From a virus (lineage: Duplodnaviria; Heunggongvirae; Uroviricota; Caudoviricetes): a stretch of DNA of 19,111 nt. The notes beneath the pieces are model-generated. The model was not told where the DNA came from. It was given only the letters and a program-made list of their open reading frames with translations, and did no database searches. The position numbers and the translations under genes are program-made. Positions within the stretch are counted from its first letter, which is position 1. The number at the start of each line of letters is the position of its first letter. Location: the IMG/VR virus record IMGVR_UViG_3300047558_000092; one strand, written 5' to 3'. Below, one piece after another: positions 2,610 through 15,074 of the stretch.

Positions 2610-4076
2610 ATGAGTCAAGTAGTTATCGGACCAGCATCCAAAAAGCAAGAGATGTTTTTAAATAGTGATGCCACTATTACATTAGCGGGTGGAGCAGCAG
2701 GTTCAGGTAAAACTTATACTGCTTTACTTATAGCCTTAAAATTTATGCAGCATCCTAGAGCTACGGGGGTTATCTTCCGTAGAACTTCTAAGATGCTAAC
2801 CGCACCCGGTAGTATCTGGCACGAAGCCGTAAACCTTTACACAAGCCTTTACCCAAATCTTCGTATCAGAACCCGCGAACTAGAACTTGTATTCCCTAAT
2901 GGTGCTTTACTCAAGTTCAGTCACATGCAGCATGCAATGAACATGTATGACCATAAAGGTGGTCAATACAGTTTAGTTATTTTTGACGAAGCAACAGACT
3001 TCGAAGAAGAGATGGTTGTGTACTTACTCTCACGTATGCGTAATGCTTACGTAGATTACACACCTCAAATGTTCTTAATGACTAACCCTGATTATAACAG
3101 TTTCTTACGTCATTGGCTTGAAGACTACTATCTAGACCCACAAACAGGCATTCCATTACCAGAGAAGACAGGCGATAAACGTTTCTTCTTCCGTCAAGGT
3201 AATACGATGATTTGGTATGACAGTTTAGCAGAAGCAGAAGCAATTCATGGTAAGGGTGATGAATCTGGTATTAGTTCATTTACGTTTATTGGTGCTACTT
3301 GTCGAGATAACCCTCCACTCTTAAAAGCTCAACCAGATTATATCAGCCGCTTAATGTCCTTACCTCGTGTAGAGAAGGAAAGATTGCTGGATGGGTCATG
3401 GTATGCTCGTATGGAGTCTGCAGGGCTGTTTAAACGCGAATGGTGCGGTTTAGTTGACCTTCCTAATGGCAGGGCCAAGCAGCGCGTTAGAGCGTGGGAT
3501 TTCGCCTTTAGCAAGCCTTCTGAGCAGTATCCTAATCCAGACTGGACTCGTGGTGTATTAATGTCTAAAGATGATGCAAAAGTCTATACAGTTGAAGATG
3601 TTGTATCTTTACGTGACAGAGTACATGAAGTTGAGAAATTAATTTTCCAGACTGCCTTGCACGATGGTCAAGGTGTAATTATTTCAATTCCATTGGACCC
3701 TGCTGCAGCTGCTGGCGCTTACGCCAAGGACTTACAACGCAAATTAGCTGAGATGGGTTTCGTATGCAGACTAACTAAACCAGTGAAGTCTAAGATTACA
3801 CGTTTTGCTCCATTCTCAAGTATTGCTCAAGCTGGATTCGTAAATATCGTAAAAGCTAACTGGAATAAAGACTTCTTCGATGAACTAGAAGTTTTTGATG
3901 GTGACCCTAAGAAAAAGGATGACCAAGTTGACTGCTGTAGTGACTGTATGTTACTTTTGAACAAAGAGCAATCGCTTCCAATATTCTCATTGCCTGATTT
4001 AACAGGTTCTAACCCTTTTGATAGTATGCCAACGCAGTCACTGTCAATGCCTCAATTTACAACTATCGGACTTTAA
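2610..4076 (+). CDS. terL: Terminase large subunit
   Basis: Walker A GGAAGSGKT, Walker B LVIFDEAT, MTNPD coupling motif, nuclease RAWDFA and C-terminal KKDDQVD. Uninterrupted, 488 aa. Confidence 0.95.
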   Translation: MSQVVIGPASKKQEMFLNSDATITLAGGAAGSGKTYTALLIALKFMQHPRATGVIFRRTSKMLTAPGSIWHEAVNLYTSLYPNLRIRTRELELVFPNGALLKFSHMQHAMNMYDHKGGQYSLVIFDEATDFEEEMVVYLLSRMRNAYVDYTPQMFLMTNPDYNSFLRHWLEDYYLDPQTGIPLPEKTGDKRFFFRQGNTMIWYDSLAEAEAIHGKGDESGISSFTFIGATCRDNPPLLKAQPDYISRLMSLPRVEKERLLDGSWYARMESAGLFKREWCGLVDLPNGRAKQRVRAWDFAFSKPSEQYPNPDWTRGVLMSKDDAKVYTVEDVVSLRDRVHEVEKLIFQTALHDGQGVIISIPLDPAAAAGAYAKDLQRKLAEMGFVCRLTKPVKSKITRFAPFSSIAQAGFVNIVKANWNKDFFDELEVFDGDPKKKDDQVDCCSDCMLLLNKEQSLPIFSLPDLTGSNPFDSMPTQSLSMPQFTTIGL

Positions 4077-4091: not shown

Positions 4092-5570
4092 ATGGCACGA
4101 CCAAAGAAACAAGAGACTATTGAAAAAGCCACAATGGGTGACACACCAGAACGATTTAAATTATCAGAAGCTGGTTACTTAGGCTTAAACGTCTATGCTG
4201 GTGTAACTCAGGATGAAATTAAGAAAGAGCTAAACTTTCCAAACAGTATCCAAACGTATAAGCAAATGTCTTATCACGGTACTATTAACTCTGCACTAAC
4301 TCTGTTCGATACACTCGTCAGTAAAGCAGATTGGAAATTTAAAGCCCCTAAGGATGCAACCCCTGCCGAATTAGACCAAGCCAGAGTCATTAACGAAATG
4401 ATGAACGACTTACAAGGTCAGACATGGGCTGATTTTATCAGTGAAGCCCTAAGCTCTAACGTATATGGCTTTTCCGTACACGAGAAGGTCTATCGTAGAC
4501 GCACAAAAGAGAACGGCTCTAAGTATAACGATGGTTTAATCGGTTGGAGAAAACTTCCAATTCGTAATCAAGAAACTATTCAACGCTTTGTCTTCTCAGA
4601 TGACGGTAACGAAATTATCGGTGTACGTCAAGACCTTACACAAGTAAGCGACCCATATAACCGCTACTCACAACGCTCCAACAACGCAGTCGTGCTACCA
4701 CGTAGCAAGATTATGCTATTTAGAGCTGGTAAGCACAAAGGTGACCCTTACGGTAAGTCTCCATTACGTGATGCTTACTTAGCATGGCGTTTCTTATCAG
4801 TGATTGAAGAGATTGAAGCTAACGGTGTAGCAAAAGATTTAGCTGGTCTTCCAGTTCTCAAGTTGCCACCTCAGTATCTAGCTGCCGATGCTTCTCCAGA
4901 CCAGAAAGCTATTCGCGCTTACTACGAAAACGTAATGCGTAACCTTCAGGTTAACCAACAATCTGCACTGATTCTACCACAAGCTTACGACCAAGATACG
5001 CGCCAGCCTTTATTCAGCTTAGAGTTACTCAGCTTGAACGGTAGTAAGGCAATGGACACTAGCAAGATTAAAGAGTATTACAAGAATTTAATTCTTACCT
5101 CTTTATTTGCAGATTTGCTAACTATGGGTCAAACTGGCGGTGGTTCTTTTGCATTAGGTCAAATTAAGAGTTCATTATCTGGCAACGCTGCTGAAGCAAT
5201 GCTCAAGAAAATTACTCAAGTTATTAATGATGACTTAATTCGTCAAACCTACGAACTTAACGGATGGGATACATCTCGTATGGGTTACATGGACTTTGAC
5301 AATATCCAAACAGAAGATTTAGAATCATTCAGTAAAGCTGTCCAACGTTACGCAAGTACAGGTATGCTTGAAATTGACCGCGATGTACTCAACCGTATTC
5401 GTGAATCTGTCGGTATTGATGCTCTTCCAGAAGATGAAGAACCAAACCTAGAAGCAATTCCAGCCAATACCTCTCGTAGTGGTGACGGTTTTGCAACAGC
5501 TGGTGAAGGTACTGCAACCAATCCATCAGGTACTGATACGTCAAGTAATAACTTAGAAAACGCAGGTTAA
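4092..5570 (+). CDS. Portal protein
   Basis: 492 aa directly after terL; GDPYGKSPLRDAY, GFSVHEKVY and GGSFALG motifs typical of DUF935/Mu gp29-like portals; SD AAGGAG. Confidence 0.85.
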   Translation: MARPKKQETIEKATMGDTPERFKLSEAGYLGLNVYAGVTQDEIKKELNFPNSIQTYKQMSYHGTINSALTLFDTLVSKADWKFKAPKDATPAELDQARVINEMMNDLQGQTWADFISEALSSNVYGFSVHEKVYRRRTKENGSKYNDGLIGWRKLPIRNQETIQRFVFSDDGNEIIGVRQDLTQVSDPYNRYSQRSNNAVVLPRSKIMLFRAGKHKGDPYGKSPLRDAYLAWRFLSVIEEIEANGVAKDLAGLPVLKLPPQYLAADASPDQKAIRAYYENVMRNLQVNQQSALILPQAYDQDTRQPLFSLELLSLNGSKAMDTSKIKEYYKNLILTSLFADLLTMGQTGGGSFALGQIKSSLSGNAAEAMLKKITQVINDDLIRQTYELNGWDTSRMGYMDFDNIQTEDLESFSKAVQRYASTGMLEIDRDVLNRIRESVGIDALPEDEEPNLEAIPANTSRSGDGFATAGEGTATNPSGTDTSSNNLENAG

Positions 5571-5668: not shown

Positions 5669-7132
5669 ATGCCGTGGAGCGCAAGCAAAACTATTCCCGC
5701 TGTAGAGGGGAAATCCCTTAAGTTGAGAGAGTTATTTGCAAAAGTAGCCAATGCTGCACTCGCTAAAGGACAAACAGAAGAAGAGGCGATTTTCGCTGGT
5801 TTAGGTGCGATAAAAATTGAAGAAAAGAAGCAACCTGTTAAAAAGGTTACAGCCCCTAAACTTCCTGCACATCTCCAAATATTAAAAGATATCGCAAATA
5901 AGCAAGCCGAATCAGTTGAAAAAGTAAAAGAAGTAAAAACTGACACAACTACTGTAGTTTCAGCCGATATTAACCAAACTGGTCATTTAGTATTACTCAT
6001 GTCTGACGGTACTAGGGTAACCACTAAGAGTCCAATACCTAAGGAAATTGTAGAACAAAACGTAGTTGTTACAAATGACACTGCAGCTTTAGTTGCTACT
6101 CAAGAACCTACAGGCTTTGAAACACGCTCCACTTCTCAGTTAGCTTTTGACGATGAAACTAGGACATTCACTATTTCAGGTTTAAATAACGAATTTTCGT
6201 TGTGGCTACATGCAAAAGAATTTACGAAACAATCTGAATCTATTCAATTACCAGATGTTTCAGGTTTATATTTTATTCATTTTGCTTATCCCGATTGTGA
6301 ATTACATTATACGACTACACCTACCTCTGAGCTATTTTTAGATACGGCATTAGTAGCTTTAGTCTATTGGCAAGCTGAAACACAAGAGCATGTATATTTT
6401 GCCGATGAACGTCACGGGATTGTAATGGATGGTGCTACACATAAGCATCTCCATCTATCATTAGGCGCTCAGTACAGAAAAGGTCTGCGTTTATATAACT
6501 TCTATGTAGATGATACTGGTAACTCAGGTTCACACGCTCAGTTCGCTTGTGATTCTGGACAGATTGCTGATGAAGATTTAGTTATTGACATTATTGATGG
6601 TGACGTTCAGACATTATCTACCGTTTTAAATGCTCCTGTCTATTACAGACATGGTGGTGAAACAGCAAACTGGTATAAAACACCTGTCAGTGCTTATCCG
6701 CTTATCTTACCAACTAATAGCCCTTATTATTTTGCAGGTACGCGACCTGCGTATAGTCACGAAGTGGATGGCTTTTGGTATCTAAGTGAAGTACCTAACA
6801 ATCAATTCGTTCTCGTGCATATTGCAGCAACTAATGATGTAGAGAACCCTGTAGTAGCTATCTTAGGTAATACTTATCAAACCAAATCTGGAGCAAGGGC
6901 TGGAGCGAACACTGAATTCGCCGCTATGTCTGGTTTACCTTTCGCAGAATTTGTCAGACTAGGTACAGTCATTTATCAAGTTTCAAATACTTACACTAAC
7001 GTAACAAAAGCTAGAGTCGTTAGCACTGAAGACGGTGCAGACTACATCGATTATAGGGATACAAGTGCTTGGTCACCTACCTCTTCAGTAATCGTAGACC
7101 AACAACAAAATATCGATGGTGGTATTTATTAA
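5669..7132 (+). CDS. Putative virion structural protein with ChaB/YdaT-like N-terminal helical domain and C-terminal IDGGIY tag
   Basis: SD AAGGAG. N-terminus MPWS...LRELFAKVANAALAKGQTEEEAIFAGLGAIK; a GHLVLLMSDG motif seen in fibre proteins; beta-rich body with ERHGIVMDGATH; ends NIDGGIY. Confidence 0.6.
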   Translation: MPWSASKTIPAVEGKSLKLRELFAKVANAALAKGQTEEEAIFAGLGAIKIEEKKQPVKKVTAPKLPAHLQILKDIANKQAESVEKVKEVKTDTTTVVSADINQTGHLVLLMSDGTRVTTKSPIPKEIVEQNVVVTNDTAALVATQEPTGFETRSTSQLAFDDETRTFTISGLNNEFSLWLHAKEFTKQSESIQLPDVSGLYFIHFAYPDCELHYTTTPTSELFLDTALVALVYWQAETQEHVYFADERHGIVMDGATHKHLHLSLGAQYRKGLRLYNFYVDDTGNSGSHAQFACDSGQIADEDLVIDIIDGDVQTLSTVLNAPVYYRHGGETANWYKTPVSAYPLILPTNSPYYFAGTRPAYSHEVDGFWYLSEVPNNQFVLVHIAATNDVENPVVAILGNTYQTKSGARAGANTEFAAMSGLPFAEFVRLGTVIYQVSNTYTNVTKARVVSTEDGADYIDYRDTSAWSPTSSVIVDQQQNIDGGIY

Positions 7133-7145
7133 TTAAGGACGCATA

Positions 7146-7502
7146 ATGCAACCCGCTAATATAGAATTAACTATTTACAAAGGTTCAACTTTTGTCAAAG
7201 CTATTCAGTGGAAAACTGGTAACCCTGCAGCACCCGTAAATCTTATGGGTTGTTCATTACGTATGCAAATCCGTAAGACTGTAACCGATACAACTGTCTT
7301 AGATTCTCTTACAACTGAAAACGGAAAACTAGAGGTTACTAACGCAGCTGAAGGCCGTATTGCTATTAAGATTGCAGCTGCCGCTTCTAGTGCATATGCC
7401 TTCGATAGAGGTGTTTATGATTTAGAGGTAGTCTTCTTAGATGGTTCTGTTTACCGTATCATTGAAGGTGCTGTAACAACCGTACCAGAGGTCACAAGAT
7501 GA
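7146..7502 (+). CDS. Beta-sandwich fibre-attachment adaptor (LtfC/p132/BppU-N-like)
   Basis: 118 aa with characteristic spacing: IYKGSTF...RMQIRK...YDLEV...G-x-V-x-RIIEG...PEVTR. Confidence 0.65.
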   Translation: MQPANIELTIYKGSTFVKAIQWKTGNPAAPVNLMGCSLRMQIRKTVTDTTVLDSLTTENGKLEVTNAAEGRIAIKIAAAASSAYAFDRGVYDLEVVFLDGSVYRIIEGAVTTVPEVTR

Positions 7503-7885
7503 CAACTGATGTTATTGTCGTAGATGATTCAGAGACAATAATTATCAATAATGACCCAATCAGTGTTATTGTAACCAGTGATGATACACTACCAGAAGTA
7601 GTAATCGTAAGTGAAGTCGATACACTGGTAGTTGATAACGAAAAATTAAACGTTATCTTAACTACAGAAGATACTGTAAATGTTATTACAGAAGGTAGTC
7701 AAGGTCCAATGGGTCCACAAGGACCGCAAGGTTTACAAGGGCTTTCAACTAATATCTCTTCTGCACCAGATGTAAACATTACAAATATACAAGACGGTTC
7801 ATTATTGATTTATTCAAGTCAAGAACAAAAGTGGGTTGCCAATACCCAATTAACAAATCAGAGCCTAGAGTCAGGTCATTATTAA
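7499..7885 (+). CDS. Small fibre/linker protein with short collagen segment
   Basis: Acidic V/I-rich N-half, GSQGPMGPQGPQGLQGLS, DVNITNIQDGSLLIYSSQEQKWV motif; ends LESGHY. Confidence 0.65.
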   Translation: MTTDVIVVDDSETIIINNDPISVIVTSDDTLPEVVIVSEVDTLVVDNEKLNVILTTEDTVNVITEGSQGPMGPQGPQGLQGLSTNISSAPDVNITNIQDGSLLIYSSQEQKWVANTQLTNQSLESGHY

Positions 7886-7895
7886 AGGATAAATC

Positions 7896-10181
7896 ATGGC
7901 ATCAATCGTAAGAATTAAACGTTCAGAGGTTTCTGGCAACCCCTCTACGTTAGCACAAGGTGAATTAGCGTATTCAGCCTTACAGGACAACGGCAGTAAT
8001 GGTGGTGACCGCTTATACGTAGGTATGGGTACAGAAACCAATGGTAATGCTGTAAACCATATCGTAATCGGTGGTAAATACTTCACCGACATGATGGACC
8101 ACTCAAAAGGTACATTAACTGCTAACTCTGCATTAATCACAGACGCTAATAGCAAGTTAAATAACATTAAGGTCGATAATATTGATATTGATGGGAATAC
8201 TATTTCCGCTACTGATTCAAATGGTAGTATCAATTTAACACCTAACGGTACTGGCTCTGTCGTATTAGATGGTCAAGCTTTCCCTAATGCTCAAGGCAGC
8301 AACGGTCAATTTTTATCTACAGATGGTGCAGGTCAATTAGCTTGGGCTAGTTTACCACCAAGTGATTTTACAATCGCTGGCAACTCTGGTACAGATATTT
8401 TTAGTACTGGTGGTACATTGACCGTAACAGGTATTGGCGCTATCTCAACAACTGCAGCAAACGATACAATCAGTATCAGCGTAGCAGAAGCTTCTAGCTC
8501 TGTTAAAGGTGTAGCTTCATTCTCATCTACCGACTTTACTGTTAACACAGGTAACGTTAGCTTAAACCACGAAGCAGTCCAAGATATTGTTGGTGATATG
8601 GTCACCTCAAATACTGAGAACGGTATTACAGTTTCTTATGACGATACAGCTGGCAAATTAAACTTTGCAGTAAATAACCCAACGATTACTATTCATGGTG
8701 ACGTAGACGGTTCTGCAACAATGACTAACTTAGGTAACACAAGTATTTCTGTTACCTTAGATACAGTAAATAACACAGTAGGTTCATTCGGTTCTACCAC
8801 AGCTGTTCCTGTTATTACCGTAAACGAAAAAGGTTTAGTCACTAGCGTATCTACAGCAAGTATCTCTTCATCATTTACATTAGCTGCAGATTCTGGTACT
8901 CCAGACGTATTTAATAACGGTGAAACATTAAGCTTCATCGGTGGTGAAGGCATTAACACTGTAATTAGTGGTGTCAATAACCGTATTACAATCTCAGCTG
9001 AAGATGCGACAGATACAAACAAGGGTATCGCTACTTTCAACGCAGGAAACTTCGTAGTAGTTGCTGGCGATGTTACATTAAAAGATGCAGGTATTACTAA
9101 CGCCAAGTTAGTTAACTCAGGTCTAACTATCGGTTCCACTAATGTTTCATTAGGTGGCACAATCACTAGCTTAAGTGGTTTAACTGAATTACAAGTTGAT
9201 AATATCAACATTAACGGTAACACAATCGGTGCTACAGATACTAACGGGAATATTAACTTAGCTCCTACAGGTACTGGTGTTGTTGACGTAACAGATTCTC
9301 GCATCGTAGGTGTCGCTACTCCAGTTAACCCAACAGATGCAGCTAACAAAGCTTATGTAGATAATGCCGTAACAGGTCTTTCATTCAAGCAAGCTGTGCA
9401 TTTAATGGCAGATGTAAACGTAGCTTTAACAGGCTCTACATCTACATTAGTTATCGATGGTCATAGTGCATTAACACAGACACATGGTAACGGGTATCGC
9501 ATTCTACTAACAGGCCAAACAACTGCCTCTGAAAATGGTATCTATCTTTACAGCGATAACGGTACAACATACGAATTAGCTCGTGCAGCAGATGCAGATG
9601 CCTACACAGAACTTTTCGGTGCTTCAGTATACGTTCTTGAAGGTGTAACTTACGGTAAAACTGGTTGGGTTCAAACTAATCACTACCTCACCAGTTTCTC
9701 TAACCAAGTTTGGACACAATTCTCTGGTGCTGGCGCTTATGTCGCTGGTGCAGGTCTTGTACTAACTGGCACTACATTTGACGTAGTTGGTGGTGCAGGT
9801 ATTAGCGTTACAACTAATGCTGTAAATCTTGCAGATTCAGTAGCAGGTGATGGTCTTACATTCTCTTCTGGTGTAATCGCTGTTGCAGGTACTGCAAATA
9901 GAATTTCTGTATCGGCAGATGCTATTGACATTGCATCTACATATGTCGGTCAAACAAGTATTACTACATTAGGCACTGTTACTACAGGTACATGGTCAGC
10001 TGACACAATTGCAGCTACTAAGGGTGGTACAGGCTTGACAACTTATGCAATTGGTGATATACTATATGCATCAGATGAAAATACATTGTCAAAATTAACT
10101 ATCGGCGCAAATGGTAAAGTTCTCCAAGTTAACGGAAGCGGAATACCAGTTTGGGCAGATTTAGATGGTGGTACATACTAA
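7896..10181 (+). CDS. Large trimeric fibre-like virion protein with internal duplicated modules
   Basis: 761 aa, T/G/S/N-rich. N-terminal IKRS...GELAY, DAANKAYVD trimer motif, duplicated VDNI-x-I-x-GNTI-x-ATD-x-NG module; ends ADLDGGTY. Confidence 0.75.
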   Translation: MASIVRIKRSEVSGNPSTLAQGELAYSALQDNGSNGGDRLYVGMGTETNGNAVNHIVIGGKYFTDMMDHSKGTLTANSALITDANSKLNNIKVDNIDIDGNTISATDSNGSINLTPNGTGSVVLDGQAFPNAQGSNGQFLSTDGAGQLAWASLPPSDFTIAGNSGTDIFSTGGTLTVTGIGAISTTAANDTISISVAEASSSVKGVASFSSTDFTVNTGNVSLNHEAVQDIVGDMVTSNTENGITVSYDDTAGKLNFAVNNPTITIHGDVDGSATMTNLGNTSISVTLDTVNNTVGSFGSTTAVPVITVNEKGLVTSVSTASISSSFTLAADSGTPDVFNNGETLSFIGGEGINTVISGVNNRITISAEDATDTNKGIATFNAGNFVVVAGDVTLKDAGITNAKLVNSGLTIGSTNVSLGGTITSLSGLTELQVDNININGNTIGATDTNGNINLAPTGTGVVDVTDSRIVGVATPVNPTDAANKAYVDNAVTGLSFKQAVHLMADVNVALTGSTSTLVIDGHSALTQTHGNGYRILLTGQTTASENGIYLYSDNGTTYELARAADADAYTELFGASVYVLEGVTYGKTGWVQTNHYLTSFSNQVWTQFSGAGAYVAGAGLVLTGTTFDVVGGAGISVTTNAVNLADSVAGDGLTFSSGVIAVAGTANRISVSADAIDIASTYVGQTSITTLGTVTTGTWSADTIAATKGGTGLTTYAIGDILYASDENTLSKLTIGANGKVLQVNGSGIPVWADLDGGTY

Positions 10182-10188
10182 ATAATAC

Positions 10189-10214
10189 GGGCGGTTTTTA
10201 CCGCCCTTTCTTTT
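10189..10214 (+). terminator. Rho-independent terminator
   Basis: gggcggt-tttt-accgccc followed by tttctttt. Confidence 0.85.
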
Positions 10215-10234
10215 ACCTTTATTAAGGATTGTAA

Positions 10235-11809
10235 ATGTCAAATAAACTACTACTCAAGAAGTCTTCAGTAGCGTCTAAAGTCCCTCTTACGACAGACTTA
10301 GATTATGGCGAGTTAGCAATTAACTACACCGATGGAAAATTATACTTCAAAGATGCAAGCAATGAAGTTAAATTCTTTCAAGCAGGTAGCGGTGGAAACT
10401 TTACAGTTTCCGATACAGCGCCAGCAAGTCCATCTAACGGTCAACCTTGGTGGAACAGTACACAAGGCCGTTTATACCTCTATTATATAGATGGTTCATC
10501 AGGTCAATGGGTAGATGCAAGCCCTAGCGTAGCTGGTCCTCAAGGTGTAGCTGGCACGATTACGGTAGGCACAGTCACTACAGGTACGGCAGGTTCTAAC
10601 GTAGCAATTACTAACACTGGAACAGCAAGTGCAGCAGTTTTAAATTTTACAATTCCACAAGGCGCTACTGGTGCTGCAGGTGCAGCTGGTACAATGACAA
10701 TTGGTACTGTCACAACAGGTGCGGCAGGTACTTCAGCTTCTGTTACTAACGTAGGCACTTCCACAGAAGCTATTTTAAATATTAGCATTCCTCGTGGTGA
10801 TACTGGTGCTACAGGTCCACAGGGTCCAGCAGGTCCAACAGGTCCACAGGGTCCAACAGGCGCTACTGGTGCTACAGGCGCAACGGGGGCTACAGGTGCT
10901 ACTGGTCCAGCAGGTCCAACAGGTCCACAGGGTCCAGCTGGTACGGTTACTGGCCTTACTTTAACTGACTCAAGTAATGGCATTAATCCAGATAACGTTA
11001 CACAAAACCAAATAGGTTATAATACCAGTGTTAGCTTATTCGGTCAAAATGATGGTGGCTTACACTCTTCTGCATACAGCTCTGCATGGATTCATCAAAT
11101 CTACGGTGACTTTAGAACTGGTCAAATTGCTATTCGCGGTAAAAATAATGGTACATGGCAATCATGGAGAACTGTATTAGATTCCAGTAATTATTCAAGT
11201 TATGCTATGCCAATAAATGGTGGGGTTAATGTTAACTTTGATATTGCTTCTAATACTAATTCCAGTTATTACTATGACGCAGCTATTGAATTACGGGAAT
11301 TAAATCATGGCGGCGCTCAAGGTGCAGCAGGTGGATTTCAAGCAATTGGACCTAGATTAGGTTTCCATTGGGATGGTGTTGTAGCTTCTCAAATTTCAAT
11401 GCAGAGTGATGGTGCTATTTGTATTATTAATAATCCCGGTACTGCTTATGAACAATTACGTTCAGGAACATTTACATCCTCTGGCAACGTTACTGCTTAT
11501 TCTGACGAGAGATTAAAAACTGATTGGGTAGATTTACCGAACGACTTTATTTACAATCTAGCTAAAGTAAAAAATGGTACATACACCAGATTAGATAATG
11601 GAATGCGCCAAGCAGGTTCATCTGCACAAGATTGGCAAAAATTATTACCAGAGGTGGTGCAAGTATCTAGTGATGACGAGAAGACTTTATCACTCGCTTA
11701 TGGTAATGCAGCATTAGTTTCATCTGTAGAATTAGCTAAAAAAGTAGTCGAACAAGAAGCCAGAATTAGCCAACTAGAGTGCTTAATTGCTAAAATTATT
11801 GACAACTAA
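10235..11809 (+). CDS. Tail/head fibre with collagen-like stalk and C-terminal peptidase S74 intramolecular chaperone
   Basis: N-terminal LKKS...[15 protein letters not shown]; 16 G-X-Y triplets; [16 protein letters not shown] knob motif; [10 protein letters not shown] autocleavage motif (Ser codon 11501-11503) and C-terminal coiled coil. Confidence 0.85.
10796..10939 (+). repeat. Collagen-like repeat (16 G-X-Y triplets) containing a perfect 33-bp direct repeat
   Basis: ggtccagcaggtccaacaggtccacagggtcca at 10823-10855 and 10904-10936. Confidence 0.95.
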
Positions 11810-11819
11810 TACATTTCTC

Positions 11820-11848
11820 TTGATTTTTCTATAAAAATGTGATATAAT
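11820..11848 (+). promoter_or_regulatory. Sigma70-type promoter P2 with extended -10
   Basis: TTGATT (11820-11825), 17-bp spacer, TG-a-TATAAT (11840-11848). Shares TCTTGA and ATGTGATATAAT with P1. Confidence 0.8.
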
Positions 11849-11877: not shown

Positions 11878-12624
11878 ATGGAAAATACTACTTTTGCTCC
11901 CACGGAAGCAATGCAAAATAATGTCCGTAGGGGTTTAGCTCTACGCGAGAAATGGAACCGAGGTGGTTTATCAATCACTAAAGCCAAAGATATTATTGAA
12001 GGTGATTTGTCATTAGCTGACGTTAAAAAGATTTATTCTTTTCTCAGTTCTAATGAACAACAGTACCTACCTAAAAGTAAGCTAAGTGATGGTGGTCCAA
12101 CTGAAGGCACAATCTCATGGTTACTATCTGGTGGCTCTGCAGGTTATGCTTGGGCAAGAATGCACCTTAAGCAAGCAGAAATTGTAAAGTCTTATACAAA
12201 AGAAATTACAGAAAACGAATTAAATTCAGAAGATGAGATTTTAGGTGAAAAGTTAAGTATCACTAAATCTGTTGATGAAGAATTAAAACAAGCGACTTTT
12301 ATTGTAATGGTTCCTGACGAGGTTGATGCCCACGGTGATACTACTACAGAGGCAGAAGTTCGCAAAGCATGTCATAACTTTAATAAATATTCAATGAAGG
12401 CTAATTTGTTTCACTTAGTTGAGACAAGTACTTTCGAGTTTTGTGAAAGTTATTGCTGTCCTACTGATTTCGTTCTTGGCGATAAGTTCGTTAAGAAGGG
12501 TACATGGTTAGCCACTGTACAGTCCTTAGATGATAATCTTTGGGAATTAATTAAATCAGGTGATATTAACGGTTTAAGTATTGGCGCTTTGGCGGCAGTC
12601 GAAACAATTGAAGAGGAAGAATAA
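11878..12624 (+). CDS. Prohead serine protease (XkdF-like/S78 family) with extra N-terminal domain; start probably ATG 11878
   Basis: SD AAGAGGTGA. VMVPDEVDAHGD, KANLFH, VKKGTWL and W-x-x-IKSG-x-x-x-GLSIG motifs. Confidence 0.8.
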   Translation: MENTTFAPTEAMQNNVRRGLALREKWNRGGLSITKAKDIIEGDLSLADVKKIYSFLSSNEQQYLPKSKLSDGGPTEGTISWLLSGGSAGYAWARMHLKQAEIVKSYTKEITENELNSEDEILGEKLSITKSVDEELKQATFIVMVPDEVDAHGDTTTEAEVRKACHNFNKYSMKANLFHLVETSTFEFCESYCCPTDFVLGDKFVKKGTWLATVQSLDDNLWELIKSGDINGLSIGALAAVETIEEEE

Positions 12625-13604
12625 TGACCACAACAAAACGTAAAGCTAAACGAAAGTTATCTGATATTAGCTTTGAAAAAGAAGGCGCTCACGTAGCTCT
12701 GGTATCTAAAGAGCAAGGCGGTCCTGCTAATAATCATGACTACGCTCTCGTATTAAAAGCTAATAAGTTCAGTGAAGAATTTATTCAGAAGATGCAACAA
12801 GTTCGTGTAACTATGGAACTACCAGAATTTCTACGTAAGTTCTTCGGTATGTACTATGAAGATTCTAAAGTACTAGCAGCAATGTTAGGTTACGTAGAAC
12901 CAGTTCAAGAAGATACACAAACTTACGAAGATTATATTCAATCTCAGTTACAAGCTTTTGAAGTGCTAAAGGCTGCAAATGACGCAGAAAGTTTAGCAGA
13001 AGTATTATCTGGCTTAGATGAAACAGAATATCTAGCAATGCTCAATGACCAAGAGTTACTTGAAAAAGCATTTGCTAACGTAGCTAAGGCTACAACCGAA
13101 TCCGCACCTGCTGCTTCTGCAGAAGGTACTGATACCTCACCCGCATGCGAGGTTACTAAAGAAGAGGTATCTACCTCTGTTAACAAAGAAGAATTGGAGA
13201 AATCTAAGATGGATGAAGATGTAAAAATCGAAACCGTAGAAAAAGCTCAGTTTGAACTAGTACAGAAAGCTCTAGACGAGCAAAAAGTAGAGTTACAAAA
13301 AGCTTTAGAAGTTATTGCTCAATTTGAAGCTGAGAAAAAAGAAGCTATCAATAAGGCAAAGACTGAACAAGTTAAAGCTATCGTTAAAGACGAAAGCAAA
13401 GTAGAAGCAATCGCTAAGGCTGCTCTATCATTAGAATCTGAAGACGATTTTACAGCCTTCTTAGCTGCTATGCAAGCTATGATGACCACTGTAGAAACAT
13501 CTGAGATGTTTGTTGAAAAGGGTGCTTCTACACAAGAAGAAGAACCTAAAGTTCAAGAATCTGCTGTGGCGAAATTGCTAAAAGCCAAGCAAGCTACTAA
13601 GTAA
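12624..13604 (+). CDS. Scaffold-like protein with N-terminal protease-type AHVALV...PAN segment
   Basis: Acidic coiled-coil body lying between protease and decoration/capsid genes; TAATG coupling with SD GAGGA. Confidence 0.7.
   Translation: MTTTKRKAKRKLSDISFEKEGAHVALVSKEQGGPANNHDYALVLKANKFSEEFIQKMQQVRVTMELPEFLRKFFGMYYEDSKVLAAMLGYVEPVQEDTQTYEDYIQSQLQAFEVLKAANDAESLAEVLSGLDETEYLAMLNDQELLEKAFANVAKATTESAPAASAEGTDTSPACEVTKEEVSTSVNKEELEKSKMDEDVKIETVEKAQFELVQKALDEQKVELQKALEVIAQFEAEKKEAINKAKTEQVKAIVKDESKVEAIAKAALSLESEDDFTAFLAAMQAMMTTVETSEMFVEKGASTQEEEPKVQESAVAKLLKAKQATK
13209..13604 (+). CDS. Putative nested in-frame scaffold product (131 aa)
   Basis: AATTGGAGAAA at 13192-13202 then ATG 13209. The same 11-mer precedes the tail tube ATG (16925-16935). 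Confidence 0.55.
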   Translation: MDEDVKIETVEKAQFELVQKALDEQKVELQKALEVIAQFEAEKKEAINKAKTEQVKAIVKDESKVEAIAKAALSLESEDDFTAFLAAMQAMMTTVETSEMFVEKGASTQEEEPKVQESAVAKLLKAKQATK

Positions 13605-13627: not shown

Positions 13628-14029
13628 ATGGCAAATCCATTCGCAACAGAAGCTAAACGTCTATCAAACGTAGTTAAGCAAGAATTATGGGCAGAAACTG
13701 GTTACACTCGCGCAGTTGTAACAGTTAACGAAGCTGCTGCTAAGTCATATGTACCGGGTACCGTCCTCGGTAAAGTCACCTCAGGTGGTAAATACAAAAT
13801 CGCTGTACAAACAGCTGAAGATGGTTCTGCAGTAGCTGATGCTATTGTAATGGGCGAAGAAACTATCGCTGCTAACACAGATACTAAAGTCCTAGTCCTT
13901 ATCAAAGGTCCAGCTATCGTATCTAAGGCTGGTTTAGTTTTAGACGCTACTTACAATGAAGCTGGCGAAAAAGCTGCCGTATACGCTGCTCTTGAAGCCA
14001 AGGGCATTGCAGTTAATGACGCAATCTAA
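13628..14029 (+). CDS. Head decoration protein (lambda gpD/HDPD-like)
   Basis: 133 aa immediately before the MCP; YVPGTVLGKVTSGGKYK...DGS motif. Confidence 0.8.
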   Translation: MANPFATEAKRLSNVVKQELWAETGYTRAVVTVNEAAAKSYVPGTVLGKVTSGGKYKIAVQTAEDGSAVADAIVMGEETIAANTDTKVLVLIKGPAIVSKAGLVLDATYNEAGEKAAVYAALEAKGIAVNDAI

Positions 14030-14060: not shown

Positions 14061-15074
14061 ATGCAAGTACGCAGTTTTGAAAAACCATTTGAGTTAGTAG
14101 ACTACACACAAGAACTACTTTTAGTTCCTAATAAGTGGGGTCTAATCAACGAATTAGGCATCTTCTCTTCAGAGCCAGTTTCACAACACTCTGTAACAGT
14201 TGAGTCTACCCAAGGTACATTAGGTATTGTAACTGACCAAGTTCGCGGCGCTCGTAACACTATGAACAGTGACGACACACGTAACCTACGTTCATTCCCA
14301 ATCCCTCACTTCCCATTAGATGACGCTATCAAGCCTCAAGATATCCAAGGTAAACGTGCCTACGGTTCTGCAGACGCTGCTGAAACTGAAGCTGCTGTTA
14401 CCGCACGTAAGTTAGAGCGTATCCGTTCTAGCCACGCTATCACTCTTGAAGCTGCTCGTGCCTATGCTCTTACTACTGGTGCTATCTACGCTCCAAACGG
14501 TACAGTATCTGGTAACTTCTTCACCGATTTCGGCGTAACACAAAAGTCTATCGACTTCGTATTAGGTACTACAACTACCGACTTACTCGCTAAGTCTGAA
14601 GAAGGTATCGCTCACATTCAAGACAACATCTTAACTGGTGAAGTCGTAAACGAAGTGATCGTTCTTTGCTCACCAGCATTCTTCGCTAAGTTAATCGCTC
14701 ACGCTACTGTTAAAGAAGCTTACAAGTATTACACTAGCACACAAGAGCCATTACGTCAGCGTTTAGGTTCTGGCCTATATCGCCGTTTCGTACACGGTGG
14801 TGTAACATACATCGAATACCGTGGTTCTTACAACGGTACAGCCCTCATCCCTGCTGGTGAAGGCGTAATGTTACCAACAGGTACAGCTGATATGTTCAAG
14901 ACATACTTCTCACCTGCTAACCGTTTCAGCCACGTAAACACGCTCGGTGAAGAGGCTTATGCGTTCACATACCGTGACCCTAAAGACGTTGAAATCCAGA
15001 TTCAAACTGAATCCAACTTCTTAAACTTAATTCGCCGCCCTGCTGCTGTGGTTAAGGTCACTACATCTAACTAA
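14061..15074 (+). CDS. Major capsid protein (lambda gpE / Phage_cap_E-like)
   Basis: 337 aa, strongly biased codon usage, ends IQTESNFLNLIRRPAAVVK; follows a gpD-like gene and is followed by a strong terminator. Confidence 0.85.
   Translation: MQVRSFEKPFELVDYTQELLLVPNKWGLINELGIFSSEPVSQHSVTVESTQGTLGIVTDQVRGARNTMNSDDTRNLRSFPIPHFPLDDAIKPQDIQGKRAYGSADAAETEAAVTARKLERIRSSHAITLEAARAYALTTGAIYAPNGTVSGNFFTDFGVTQKSIDFVLGTTTTDLLAKSEEGIAHIQDNILTGEVVNEVIVLCSPAFFAKLIAHATVKEAYKYYTSTQEPLRQRLGSGLYRRFVHGGVTYIEYRGSYNGTALIPAGEGVMLPTGTADMFKTYFSPANRFSHVNTLGEEAYAFTYRDPKDVEIQIQTESNFLNLIRRPAAVVKVTTSN

What the first reader, a model, noticed from the sequence alone, without database searches (positions are those of the whole stretch)
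12400..12760. Prohead protease motifs appear split across two genes
Seen: ORF 11878-12624 contains ANLFH (His 12412) and GLSIG (Ser 12577) and stops 15 codons later. The next ORF begins RKLSDISFEKEGAHVALVSKEQGGPAN (His 12690). Established: in HK97/S78 proteases the Ser motif is followed in the same chain by an EVSLV..PAN strand, herpesvirus assemblins have GLSLSS then HVAL (Ser-His-His triad), and as I recall PBSX XkdF carries that strand at its N-terminus (circular permutation). Inference: the third triad residue and last strand are supplied in trans by the scaffold, so the protease would be active only when bound to scaffold in the prohead. The genes overlap by TAATG with their own SD, and no canonical -1 slippery heptamer is visible.
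Basis: partly seen in the sequence, partly recalled or inferred. Interest (0 to 1): 0.7.

Follow-up and report, generated by a model that had tools for sequence, protein, structure and literature searches.

The report
Head protease completed by scaffold strand
In this uncultivated freshwater phage the capsid-maturation protease gene ends just after its catalytic serine, and the last two strands of the enzyme's fold, with a histidine that co-varies with an active-site residue, open the next gene (the scaffold), so the enzyme is probably tethered, and perhaps switched on, only when it meets the scaffold.

Summary
ORF 11878-12624 is an XkdF-type (Pfam PF14550) prohead protease with catalytic His179 and Ser234. 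It stops 15 codons after the Ser. ORF 12624-13604, the scaffold, opens with a basic tail followed by the HVALV..PAN..YALVLK segment.

The stop is real:
- The same split occurs in 272 related phage loci, with variable gene junctions.
- A homing endonuclease gene lies between the two genes in about ten relatives.

Other proteins carry the segment in the protease chain. In rare fused homologues and in HK97 gp4 it follows the core. In Firmicute XkdF proteins it precedes the core (a circular permutation).

Structure models agree:
- The window's protease alone matches T4 gp21 and herpes proteases only up to the Ser strand.
- A natural fused homologue matches them through the region bearing the third triad residue.

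The strongest evidence for docking in trans is covariation. Protease Gly236 (Ser+2) and scaffold His23 form the top-ranked of 5,490 inter-protein column pairs. Small residue + His occurs in 200 loci, Gln/Glu/Asp + non-His in 71, with one exception.

Catalysis and activation are untested, and no complex was modelled. No paper describing this was found. Earlier follow-ups in this scan reported the same split in other genomes.

The parts
11820..11848 (+). Promoter-like site (TTGATT, 17 nt spacer, TATAAT with an upstream TG) ahead of the protease gene
   Evidence: 10 of 12 matches. This is a consensus match only, and the number of such sites in the region is not above the shuffled expectation.
11878..12267 (+). 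P0001 aa 1-130: helical N-terminal domain and linker. It ends at the conserved ITK130|S131 cleavage-like site.
   Evidence: The AF2 model has helices 10-26, 33-41, 46-58, 76-83 and 86-99. K130 is invariant. The same domain is fused to a canonical S78 protease (P0145) and to a methyltransferase (P0042). The function of the domain is unknown.
12268..12624 (+). P0001 aa 131-248: XkdF-type protease core with His179 (12412-12414), Ser234 (12577-12579), Gly236 (12583-12585), an acidic C-terminal tail and the stop codon
   Evidence: PF14550 matches at 88.9 bits (cut-off 24), covering profile positions 5-123 of 126. H179 and S234 are invariant. The AF2 model has pLDDT 91.8. VIA-align to T4 gp21 (5jbl) gives Z 8.5, model 129-246 against gp21 24-152 only.
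12613..12626 (+). Gene junction: GAGGA Shine-Dalgarno for ORF2, then the TAATG stop/start overlap
   Evidence: Read directly from the sequence. Relatives have junction gaps from -26 to +30 nt, or an inserted endonuclease gene.
12624..12758 (+). P0002 aa 1-45: basic tail (aa 5-11), KLSDISF, strand HVALV with His23 (12690-12692), GGPAN loop, strand YALVLK. This is the part of the protease fold that the protease gene lacks.
   Evidence: The segment is collinear with the stretch after the Ser strand in fused homologues P0107, P0151 and P0161 and in HK97 gp4. In the fused AF2 model the segment forms strand 152-158, inside the region that superposes on gp21. Covariation of His23 with Gly236 ranks 1 of 5,490 inter-protein pairs.
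12756..12761 (+). Predicted maturation cleavage site VLK45|A46, directly after the donated strands
   Evidence: The [VIL]-x-K-[AS] motif occurs 11 times in P0002 against 1.37 expected, and 6 times in P0001 against 0.61 expected. A site at this position is present in 118 of 123 distinct scaffold N-termini. Cleavage itself is inferred.
12759..13604 (+). P0002 aa 46-326: scaffold body, helical and charged, with ten further cleavage-like motifs
   Evidence: phrog_4103 matches at E 2.6e-62. The gene lies between the protease and the decoration (13628-14029) and major capsid (14061-15074) genes. In the fused homologue the equivalent part is long helices. ICP1 Gp124, which carries the same N-terminal motif, is annotated as the scaffold.

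Best explanation
**What it is.** The phage makes its prohead protease as two polypeptides.
- Gene 1 encodes an N-terminal helical domain plus an XkdF-type serine-protease core with His179 and Ser234. The core ends about 14 residues after the Ser strand.
- The final beta-hairpin of the HK97 gp4 / T4 gp21 / herpes-assemblin fold is encoded as the first 45 residues of gene 2, the scaffold.

**How it probably works (inferred).**
- The scaffold's N-terminal hairpin docks into the protease core. The basic scaffold tail and the acidic protease tail may help.
- His23 then sits next to Ser234 and Gly236, at the position that Glu, Asp or His occupies in single-chain relatives.
- This ties one protease to one scaffold molecule, so the enzyme is carried into the procapsid, and it completes or tunes the active site.
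- The enzyme then cuts the scaffold at [VIL]-x-K|[AS] sites, including VLK45|A46 just behind the hairpin. The hairpin could stay with the protease.

**Shown versus inferred.**
- Shown: the split, its conservation, the homology and collinearity of the segment, the missing fold segment, and the inter-protein covariation.
- Inferred: docking geometry, a catalytic role for His23, dependence of activity on the scaffold, and the cleavage sites.
For: **The split is real and conserved.**
- Relatives share it: Limnohabitans phage DC31 (78% nt identity), PAK_P1 and Curvibacter P26059A.
- 231 cultured-phage records carry the motif at the junction.
- Nearly all of the 150 best representatives out of 4,834 hits have the domain at the extreme C-terminus.
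- 272 IMG/VR and phage loci have both genes.
- The junction varies, and GIY-YIG endonuclease genes are inserted in about ten loci.

**The segment belongs to the protease fold.**
- Natural fused proteins P0107, P0151 and P0161 carry it 30-45 residues after the Ser motif.
- HK97 gp4 carries the equivalent EISVCTFPAN inside PF04586, whereas PF14550 stops about 10 residues after the Ser.
- Bacillus B83, Lactococcus 28201 and Clostridium H1 XkdF-like proteins carry it at their N-terminus.

**Structure models agree.**
- P0001 alone has no strand after helix 219-227.
- P0001 alone aligns to gp21 residues 24-152, to VZV protease up to residue 125, and to HCMV protease up to residue 137. All three alignments stop before the third triad residue.
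- Fused P0107 forms strand 152-158 from the segment.
- Fused P0107 aligns to gp21 10-172/173 (Z 9.1-9.3), to KSHV protease 4-144, and to HCMV through residue 249.

**Covariation indicates contact in trans.**
- Ser+2 of G, S, N or A pairs with His in 200 loci. Ser+2 of Q, E or D pairs with a non-His residue in 71 loci. There is one exception.
- APC-corrected mutual information puts G236-H23 at rank 1 of 5,490 inter-protein pairs (z 9.8) and rank 3 of all 13,861 pairs.
- The fused protein P0161 follows the same rule, with Gln at Ser+2 and Ala at the His position.
- The second donated strand co-varies with the first core strand: M144 and T156 with A41 and L44.
Against: - No model or experiment of the two-chain complex exists.
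- Sequence similarity of the segment to canonical S78 is statistically weak. hhalign of the scaffold N-terminus against S78 aligned only 7 columns at E 0.14. The register of His against Glu141 of HK97 appears only with permissive settings.
- His23 is not universal: about 26% of loci lack it.
- The number of phylogenetically independent G/Q switches is small: 5 on the best tree, only 2 forced by well-supported branches. The sign test is therefore not significant.
- AF2 folds the core alone with high confidence, so an autonomous Ser-His dyad enzyme is not excluded.
Confidence: 0.7

Rival explanations
1. Docking tag only. The protease core is a complete, autonomous Ser-His enzyme. The scaffold N-terminus is an evolutionary remnant of the terminal hairpin that now serves only to bind the protease, for encapsidation or as a pseudo-substrate or first substrate, without contributing to catalysis.
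For: - AF2 folds P0001 alone at pLDDT 91.8.
- His23 is replaced in about 26% of loci.
- D150, H152 and D154 in the core are invariant or nearly so and could support the active site.
- A cleavage-like site follows the hairpin directly.
Against: - The residue that co-varies with His23 is Ser+2, which lies on the same face of the strand as the catalytic Ser. When His is lost, a Gln, Glu or Asp appears there. That looks like functional compensation at the active site rather than a remote tag.
- The Ser region has no strand partner in the stand-alone model.
- The single-chain relatives T4 gp21 and HCMV protease carry a third triad residue in this region (PMC5694885 for gp21; HCMV from my own knowledge).
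Confidence: 0.22
2. One chain after all. A programmed -1 frameshift or other recoding at the TAATG junction produces a fused protease-scaffold protein like P0107.
For: ORF2 is in the -1 frame relative to ORF1 and overlaps it. Fused homologues exist in nature.
Against: - The -1 frame is open for only four codons before the ATG, and there is no slippery heptamer.
- ORF2 has its own Shine-Dalgarno sequence.
- Junction spacing and frame vary among relatives (-26 to +30 nt), and about ten relatives have a whole endonuclease gene in between.
Confidence: 0.03
3. Artefact. The stop codon is a sequencing or assembly error, or the gene is decaying.
For: None found.
Against: The same stop position, 9-20 residues after the Ser, occurs in 272 loci from independent samples and in cultured phages. 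Both genes are under clear conservation.
Confidence: 0.01

Closest known systems
XkdF-type protease-scaffold fusion proteins (Pfam PF14550 Peptidase_S78_2): PBSX XkdF-like proteins of Bacillus phage vB_BtS_B83 (gp09), Lactococcus phage 28201, Clostridium phage H1, Methanobacterium phage psiM2 ORF12, and metagenomic P0107/P0151/P0161
   Same: The protease core is the same, with the DxHGD, NLxH and GxS[IV]x motifs. The hairpin motif is the same ([H]-V-[AS]-L-V ... A-N ... hydrophobic strand, then K-[AS]). A helical scaffold follows, and the genes sit in the same position before the capsid gene.
   Different: There the core, hairpin and scaffold are one chain. The hairpin lies before the core in Firmicute phages and after it in psiM2 and P0107. 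Here the chain is cut between core and hairpin, and the core carries an extra N-terminal helical domain.
HK97 gp4 prohead protease (MEROPS S78, Pfam PF04586)
   Same: His65 and Ser114 correspond to His179 and Ser234. The stretch after the Ser strand, ending in EISVCTFPAN and a further strand, is collinear with P0002 residues 12-45.
   Different: gp4 is a single chain and is targeted to the capsid by its own C-terminal tail (my knowledge, Duda et al. 2013). P0001 does not reach PF04586 at E <= 1. Glu stands where His23 stands.
T4 gp21 (PDB 5JBL, Pfam S77) and herpesvirus assemblins (VZV 1VZV, HCMV 1NKK/8J3S, KSHV 5V5E)
   Same: The fold is shared: Z 8.5 for the window's core and Z 9.1-9.3 for the fused homologue. 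The catalytic His and Ser align. The triad's third member, Asp in gp21 (PMC5694885) and His157 in HCMV, lies on the segment that the window's protease lacks.
   Different: These are single chains with about 11-14% sequence identity. They are activated by self-cleavage (gp21, PMC9958956) or dimerisation (herpes, my knowledge), not by a second protein's strand.
Vibrio phage ICP1 Gp125 (capsid protease) and Gp124 (scaffold)
   Same: The same split occurs in a well-studied phage. Gp125 is an XkdF-type core, and Gp124 opens with the same motif (..LNF.....HLAI....G.SAN....LLFKS).
   Different: Gp125 has about 130 further residues after the Ser motif and Arg at Ser+2. The published ICP1 capsid work (PMC10945586) does not mention any dependence of the protease on the scaffold.
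Viral proteases that need a strand from another polypeptide: flavivirus NS2B-NS3, HCV NS3-NS4A, adenovirus AVP with the pVIc peptide (from my own knowledge, not tested here)
   Same: The working principle proposed here is the same: a short segment of a partner protein completes or activates the protease. In adenovirus this happens inside the assembling capsid.
   Different: The folds are unrelated (chymotrypsin-like or papain-like). This is not homology, only an analogy of mechanism.

Membership tests
Pfam PF14550 Peptidase_S78_2 (XkdF family) | Match to the family HMM above the curated cut-off | tested here: met
   88.9 bits against a cut-off of 24, E 3.5e-25, residues 128-240 on profile positions 5-123 of 126.
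Pfam PF14550 Peptidase_S78_2 (XkdF family) | Conserved catalytic His and Ser | tested here: met
   H179 and S234 are invariant in 73 sequences. They align with H85 and S140 of T4 gp21.
Pfam PF14550 Peptidase_S78_2 (XkdF family) | Protease and scaffold in one chain, as in the name-giving PBSX XkdF-like proteins | tested here: not met
   The stop lies at 12622-12624 and the scaffold is a separate gene. Fused forms are seen in Bacillus B83, Lactococcus 28201, psiM2 and P0107.
Assemblin-like (SH clan) prohead protease fold: T4 gp21, herpes proteases, HK97 gp4 | Core beta-barrel carrying the His and Ser | tested here: met
   VIA-align against 5jbl_A: Z 8.5, rmsd 3.5, 106 residues aligned. Against 1vzv_A: Z 5.4.
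Assemblin-like (SH clan) prohead protease fold: T4 gp21, herpes proteases, HK97 gp4 | Strand after the Ser strand, bearing the third triad residue, in the same chain | tested here: not met
   The P0001 alignment stops at gp21 residue 152, VZV residue 125 and HCMV residue 137. The fused homologue reaches gp21 172/173 and KSHV 144. In the window the segment is P0002 residues 12-45.
Pfam PF04586 Peptidase_S78 (HK97 type) | Match to the family HMM | tested here: not met
   No PF04586 hit at E <= 1 for P0001 or P0002. HK97 gp4 itself scores 105 bits.
Pfam PF04586 Peptidase_S78 (HK97 type) | C-terminal E-[IV]-S-x-[VC]..PAN strand homologous to P0002 residues 23-36 | tested here: inconclusive
   hhalign of the scaffold N-termini against S78 aligned 7 columns in the expected register at E 0.14. 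The fused alignment against S78 gave E 0.0045, and the strand aligned only at mact 0.05.
Phage internal scaffold protein | Gene between protease and capsid genes; long helical, charged protein; removed by the protease | tested here: inconclusive
   The gene position is met. The helical body is seen in the fused homologue model. phrog_4103 has no assigned function. Enrichment of the cleavage-like motif is indirect. ICP1 Gp124 is annotated as the scaffold.
Trans-activated (cofactor-strand) viral protease, as a working principle | Physical contact of the partner segment with the protease at or near the active site | tested here: inconclusive
   G236-H23 covariation ranks 1 of 5,490 pairs, with 271 of 272 loci concordant. 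There are only 2-5 independent switches, and no complex model exists.
Trans-activated (cofactor-strand) viral protease, as a working principle | Activity depends on the partner segment | not testable with these tools
   This needs an enzyme assay of the core with and without P0002 residues 1-45.

The most novel reading that the evidence does not exclude
The first 45 residues of the scaffold act as a built-in activating cofactor of the prohead protease. The hairpin completes the beta-barrel and supplies the third member of the catalytic centre (His23). In sister lineages that role has moved into the protease itself as Gln, Glu or Asp at Ser+2. The protease is therefore inactive until it is bound to scaffold. 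After cleavage at VLK45|A46 the hairpin stays with the enzyme. On this reading the same fold exists in nature in three topologies: hairpin first, hairpin last and hairpin in trans. The arrangement would hold for hundreds of phages, including Pakpunaviruses used in phage therapy and ICP1.
Probability: 0.4. Interest if true: 0.8.

Novelty: new variant of a known kind. Interest (0 to 1): 0.66.

Why it matters
**Control of the protease.** How prohead proteases are kept inactive until the shell is built, and how they are loaded in the right number, is known for only a few models: gp21 self-cleavage, the HK97 gp4 targeting tail, and herpes dimerisation. A protease whose fold is finished by the scaffold would solve both problems at once, and the idea is directly testable in PAK_P1-like phages or ICP1.

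**Protein evolution.** This is a natural case of one fold found in cis, circularly permuted and in trans. It comes with a clean compensatory pair (Gly/His against Gln/Ala) that invites a double-mutant cycle.

**Annotation.** These proteases are widely mislabelled 'DNA methyltransferase' or 'capsid and scaffold protein', and their partner is labelled 'hypothetical protein'.

Tried and rejected
**Tools and data that were unavailable**
Neighbourhoods of the distant, long XkdF-bearing polyproteins (P0042, P0103 and others) could therefore not be checked.
- No whole genome is held for the window.
- The T4 gp21 structure paper PMC5093050 is not held. The identity of gp21's third residue (probably Asp168 in GVDAV..PSAP) rests on PMC5694885 plus motif position.
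- Model coordinates are not exposed, so no distances could be measured.

**Searches that found nothing or little**
- PDB sequence searches found nothing for either protein or for the profile.
- Foldseek against PDB was weak: the best was 5jbl at E 0.19, prob 0.72. VIA-align was needed.
- Literature searches for XkdF, S78_2, a split or permuted maturation protease, and the ICP1 protease found no description of this arrangement.
- The Atlas search on the N-terminal domain was uninformative.

**Alignment and query problems**
- hhalign of A1 against gp21 aligned the His and Ser but was not significant.
- hhalign against S78 was weak.
- The alignment A4 was too diverse as a related-loci query.
- MAFFT misplaced scaffold rows in mixed alignments, so the fused model was built without them.

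**Readings rejected**
- Frameshift fusion and sequencing error were both considered and rejected (see rival explanations).
- A circular permutation in which the N-terminal strand of P0001's own core (FIVMVP..DAHGD) is the 'missing' strand was rejected. That strand corresponds to the ordinary first strand of S78 proteases.

**Test that lacked power**
- The independent-pairs sign test remained underpowered even after four viral-contig scans.
Full report
**1. Observation**

The window is the head module of an uncultivated myophage related to Pakpunavirus. It holds, in order:
- large terminase, 2610-4076;
- portal, 4092-5570;
- an inserted block, 5669-11809;
- ORF 11878-12624 (P0001, 248 aa);
- ORF 12624-13604 (P0002, 326 aa);
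- decoration protein, 13628-14029;
- major capsid protein, 14061-15074.

- ANLFH, with the His179 codon at 12412;
- GLSIG, with the Ser234 codon at 12577;
- the stop 15 codons later;
- the TAATG overlap and a GAGGA Shine-Dalgarno sequence;
- the next protein reading basic tail, KLSDISF, HVALV (His23 codon at 12690), GGPAN.

**2. What the two genes are**

P0001 residues 128-240 match Pfam PF14550 (Peptidase_S78_2, XkdF) at 88.9 bits, covering profile positions 5-123 of 126. Residues 1-125 form a separate helical domain. P0002 matches only phrog_4103, which has no assigned function, and lies where a scaffold gene lies. The nearest cultured relative is Limnohabitans phage DC31 (78% nt identity). 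Curvibacter phage P26059A and the PAK_P1 group share the module.

**3. The stop is real and no recoding is involved**

- DC31 and PAK_P1 have the same two genes.
- In Curvibacter P26059A an annotated GIY-YIG endonuclease gene lies between them.
- In 80+80+80+80 IMG/VR loci the protease ends 9-20 residues after the Ser motif, usually with an acidic tail. The next gene, or the gene after an inserted endonuclease, opens with the motif.
- The junction varies from -26 to +30 nt and lies in different frames.
- Among the 150 best of 4,834 library hits, the domain lies at the very C-terminus in nearly all, whatever is fused upstream.
- In the window, the -1 frame is open for only four codons before the ATG and holds no slippery heptamer.

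**4. The scaffold's first 45 residues belong to the protease fold**

Three lines of comparison show this.

(a) *Rare natural fusions.* P0107, P0151 and P0161 have core, then a 30-45-residue linker, then ..L..F.F.....HVALV..AN...ILV.KA, then a coiled-coil scaffold.

(b) *HK97 gp4.* It has the collinear stretch ...RIFKNI..L.EISVCTFPAN...IAAMK inside Pfam PF04586. PF14550 simply stops about 10 residues after the Ser. With permissive settings hhalign puts VALV..AN on ISVC.FPAN, so His falls on Glu141. The statistics are weak, and the scaffold N-terminus alone aligns only 7 columns at E 0.14.

(c) *Firmicute XkdF-like proteins.* Bacillus B83 gp09, Lactococcus 28201 and Clostridium H1 carry the same hairpin (..ITHVSYVDKAAN...FFFTKS) at their N-terminus, before the core. 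psiM2 ORF12 carries the hairpin after the core.

Vibrio phage ICP1 is split like the window. Gp125, the capsid protease, is followed by Gp124, the scaffold, which opens with the motif.

**5. Structure models**

P0001 alone (AF2, 73-row alignment, pLDDT 91.8) has the strands and helices of the core up to helix 219-227. After that no strand is assigned, so the Ser234 segment has no partner. Its best structural matches stop short:

| Target | Z | Model range | Target range |
|---|---|---|---|
| T4 gp21 | 8.5 | 129-246 | 24-152 |
| VZV protease | 5.4 | 135-239 | 11-125 |
| HCMV protease | 3.9 | 135-239 | 12-137 |

Each alignment stops just after the catalytic Ser (Ser140, Ser120 and Ser132 respectively) and before the third triad residue.

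The natural fused homologue P0107 (pLDDT 83.7) forms strands 108-115 (the Ser strand), 119-123, 133-138 and 152-158 (the HVALV segment, pLDDT about 80). It aligns further:
- to gp21 10-172/173, at Z 9.1-9.3;
- to KSHV protease 4-144;
- to HCMV protease 10-249, which covers the third-residue region.

The triad of gp21 is His-Ser-Asp according to PMC5694885. In the gp21 sequence the Asp most likely lies in GVDAV..PSAP. Residue-level superposition and distances could not be read, because coordinates are not exposed.

**6. Covariation between the two proteins**

For 272 loci with both genes I tabulated two residues: the one two positions after the catalytic Ser, which is on the same face of the strand as the Ser, and the scaffold residue aligned with His23.

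| Ser+2 in protease | Scaffold residue at His23 position | Loci |
|---|---|---|
| Gly | His | 187 |
| Ser | His | 7 |
| Asn | His | 5 |
| Ala | His | 1 |
| Gln | Ala | 55 |
| Gln | Thr | 8 |
| Gln | Arg | 3 |
| Glu | Thr | 3 |
| Glu | Cys | 1 |
| Asp | Asn | 1 |
| Gly | Leu | 1 |

No locus combines Gln, Glu or Asp with His. Close relatives differ in both positions at once: L117 is Gly/His, while L116 and L119 are Gln/Ala. The fused protein P0161 is Gln/Ala too.

An unbiased scan used 156 distinct pairs (effective number 68).
- APC-corrected mutual information puts Gly236-His23 first among 5,490 inter-protein column pairs (z 9.8), and third among all 13,861 pairs including intramolecular ones.
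- The next inter-protein pairs link the second donated strand (Ala41, Leu44, Lys45) to the first core strand and the turn after DAHGD (Met144, Thr156).

On a tree built without the two trait columns, the Gln/Glu/Asp state changes five times. Two of those changes are forced by well-supported branches. The scaffold state follows every time, but that is too few events for a significant sign test. I take this as good, not conclusive, evidence that the hairpin docks beside the Ser strand in trans, and that His23 and the Ser+2 side chain compete for the same place in the active site.

**7. Processing sites**

- The motif [VIL]-x-K-[AS] occurs 11 times in P0002 (1.37 expected from shuffles) and 6 times in P0001 (0.61 expected). 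It occurs only 1-2 times in the capsid, decoration, portal and terminase proteins.
- Of the 13 Lys-[Ala/Ser] dipeptides in the scaffold, 11 have Val, Ile or Leu two residues before the Lys.
- One site, VLK45|A46, lies directly behind the donated hairpin and is kept in 118 of 123 distinct scaffolds.
- Another site, ITK130|S131, with invariant Lys130, lies directly before the protease core.

Cleavage at these sites is inferred, not shown.

**8. Mechanism proposed**

The core (aa 131-248) and the hairpin (scaffold aa 12-45) associate. The acidic protease tail (aa 242-248) and the basic scaffold tail (aa 5-11) may help. This loads one protease per scaffold N-terminus into the procapsid and completes the barrel next to Ser234. 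His23, or in other lineages a Gln, Glu or Asp in cis, takes the place of the third residue. The enzyme then degrades the scaffold, and the first cut behind the hairpin could free a complete two-chain protease.

Rival readings are a pure docking tag (about 0.2), a recoded fusion (about 0.03) and an artefact (about 0.01).

**9. Known or new**

The family and fold are known. The split, the three topologies of the hairpin and the compensatory pair were not found in any paper searched. One comparative paper even calls XkdF peptidases unrelated to the SH superfamily, and the ICP1 capsid paper does not address the protease. Mechanistic analogues are NS2B-NS3, NS3-NS4A and adenovirus AVP-pVIc (my own knowledge).

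Within this scan the same split has been reported before in other genomes (e1-134894, e1-5373162, e1-5346071, e1-5355498, e1-5713237, e1-5914284). Those are unchecked AI notes and were read after my own analysis.

**10. Limits**

Noticed in passing
L002/L008/L063 (Curvibacter phage P26059A and copies), L070, L083, L086, L087, L089, L126, L232; corresponds to window 12622-12626: Free-standing GIY-YIG homing-endonuclease genes (about 200-230 aa) sit exactly between the protease and scaffold genes in about ten relatives. The junction next to the very conserved scaffold 5' end looks like a homing hotspot, and such insertions may be how the gene was split.
   Followed up: partly
window 11878-12252 (P0001 aa 1-125): This helical domain has a PT.A...N..RG.AL motif. 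It recurs fused to a canonical S78 protease (P0145), to an N6-methyltransferase (P0042), or placed after the protease core (L142, L159-L169, where Ser+2 is Glu). The methyltransferase fusions probably explain why Pakpunavirus proteases are annotated 'DNA methyltransferase'. The domain's function is unknown.
   Followed up: partly
window 5669-11809: Four or more ORFs lie between the portal and protease genes: a 487-aa ORF with no PHROG hit, a 761-aa ORF with head-decoration-like hits, and a 524-aa tail-fibre-like ORF. In PAK_P1 the portal is followed directly by the protease.
   Followed up: no
window 12756-12761, 12259-12270 and ten further sites in 12624-13604: The motif [VIL]-x-K-[AS] is about eight-fold enriched in the scaffold and about ten-fold enriched in the protease. 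It is probably the maturation-cleavage specificity of this protease family.
   Followed up: partly
relatives P0200-P0282 (scaffolds of 403-410 aa): Many relatives' scaffolds carry a C-terminal extension of about 80 aa, with a precomputed hit to PF11160 (Hva1_TUDOR). The window's scaffold lacks it. All the scaffolds carry a precomputed PF26210 hit, a family absent from the local Pfam copy.
   Followed up: no
window 11820-11848: An extended -10 promoter-like site (TTGATT, 17 nt spacer, TGnTATAAT) lies just upstream of the protease gene. This suggests the head genes start a transcription unit of their own after the inserted block.
   Followed up: no
L252 (Vibrio phage ICP1, Gp125/Gp124): ICP1's annotated capsid protease and scaffold show the same split, with the hairpin motif at the scaffold N-terminus. 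ICP1 is therefore a ready experimental system. Gp125 has an extra tail of about 130 aa after the Ser motif.
   Followed up: partly
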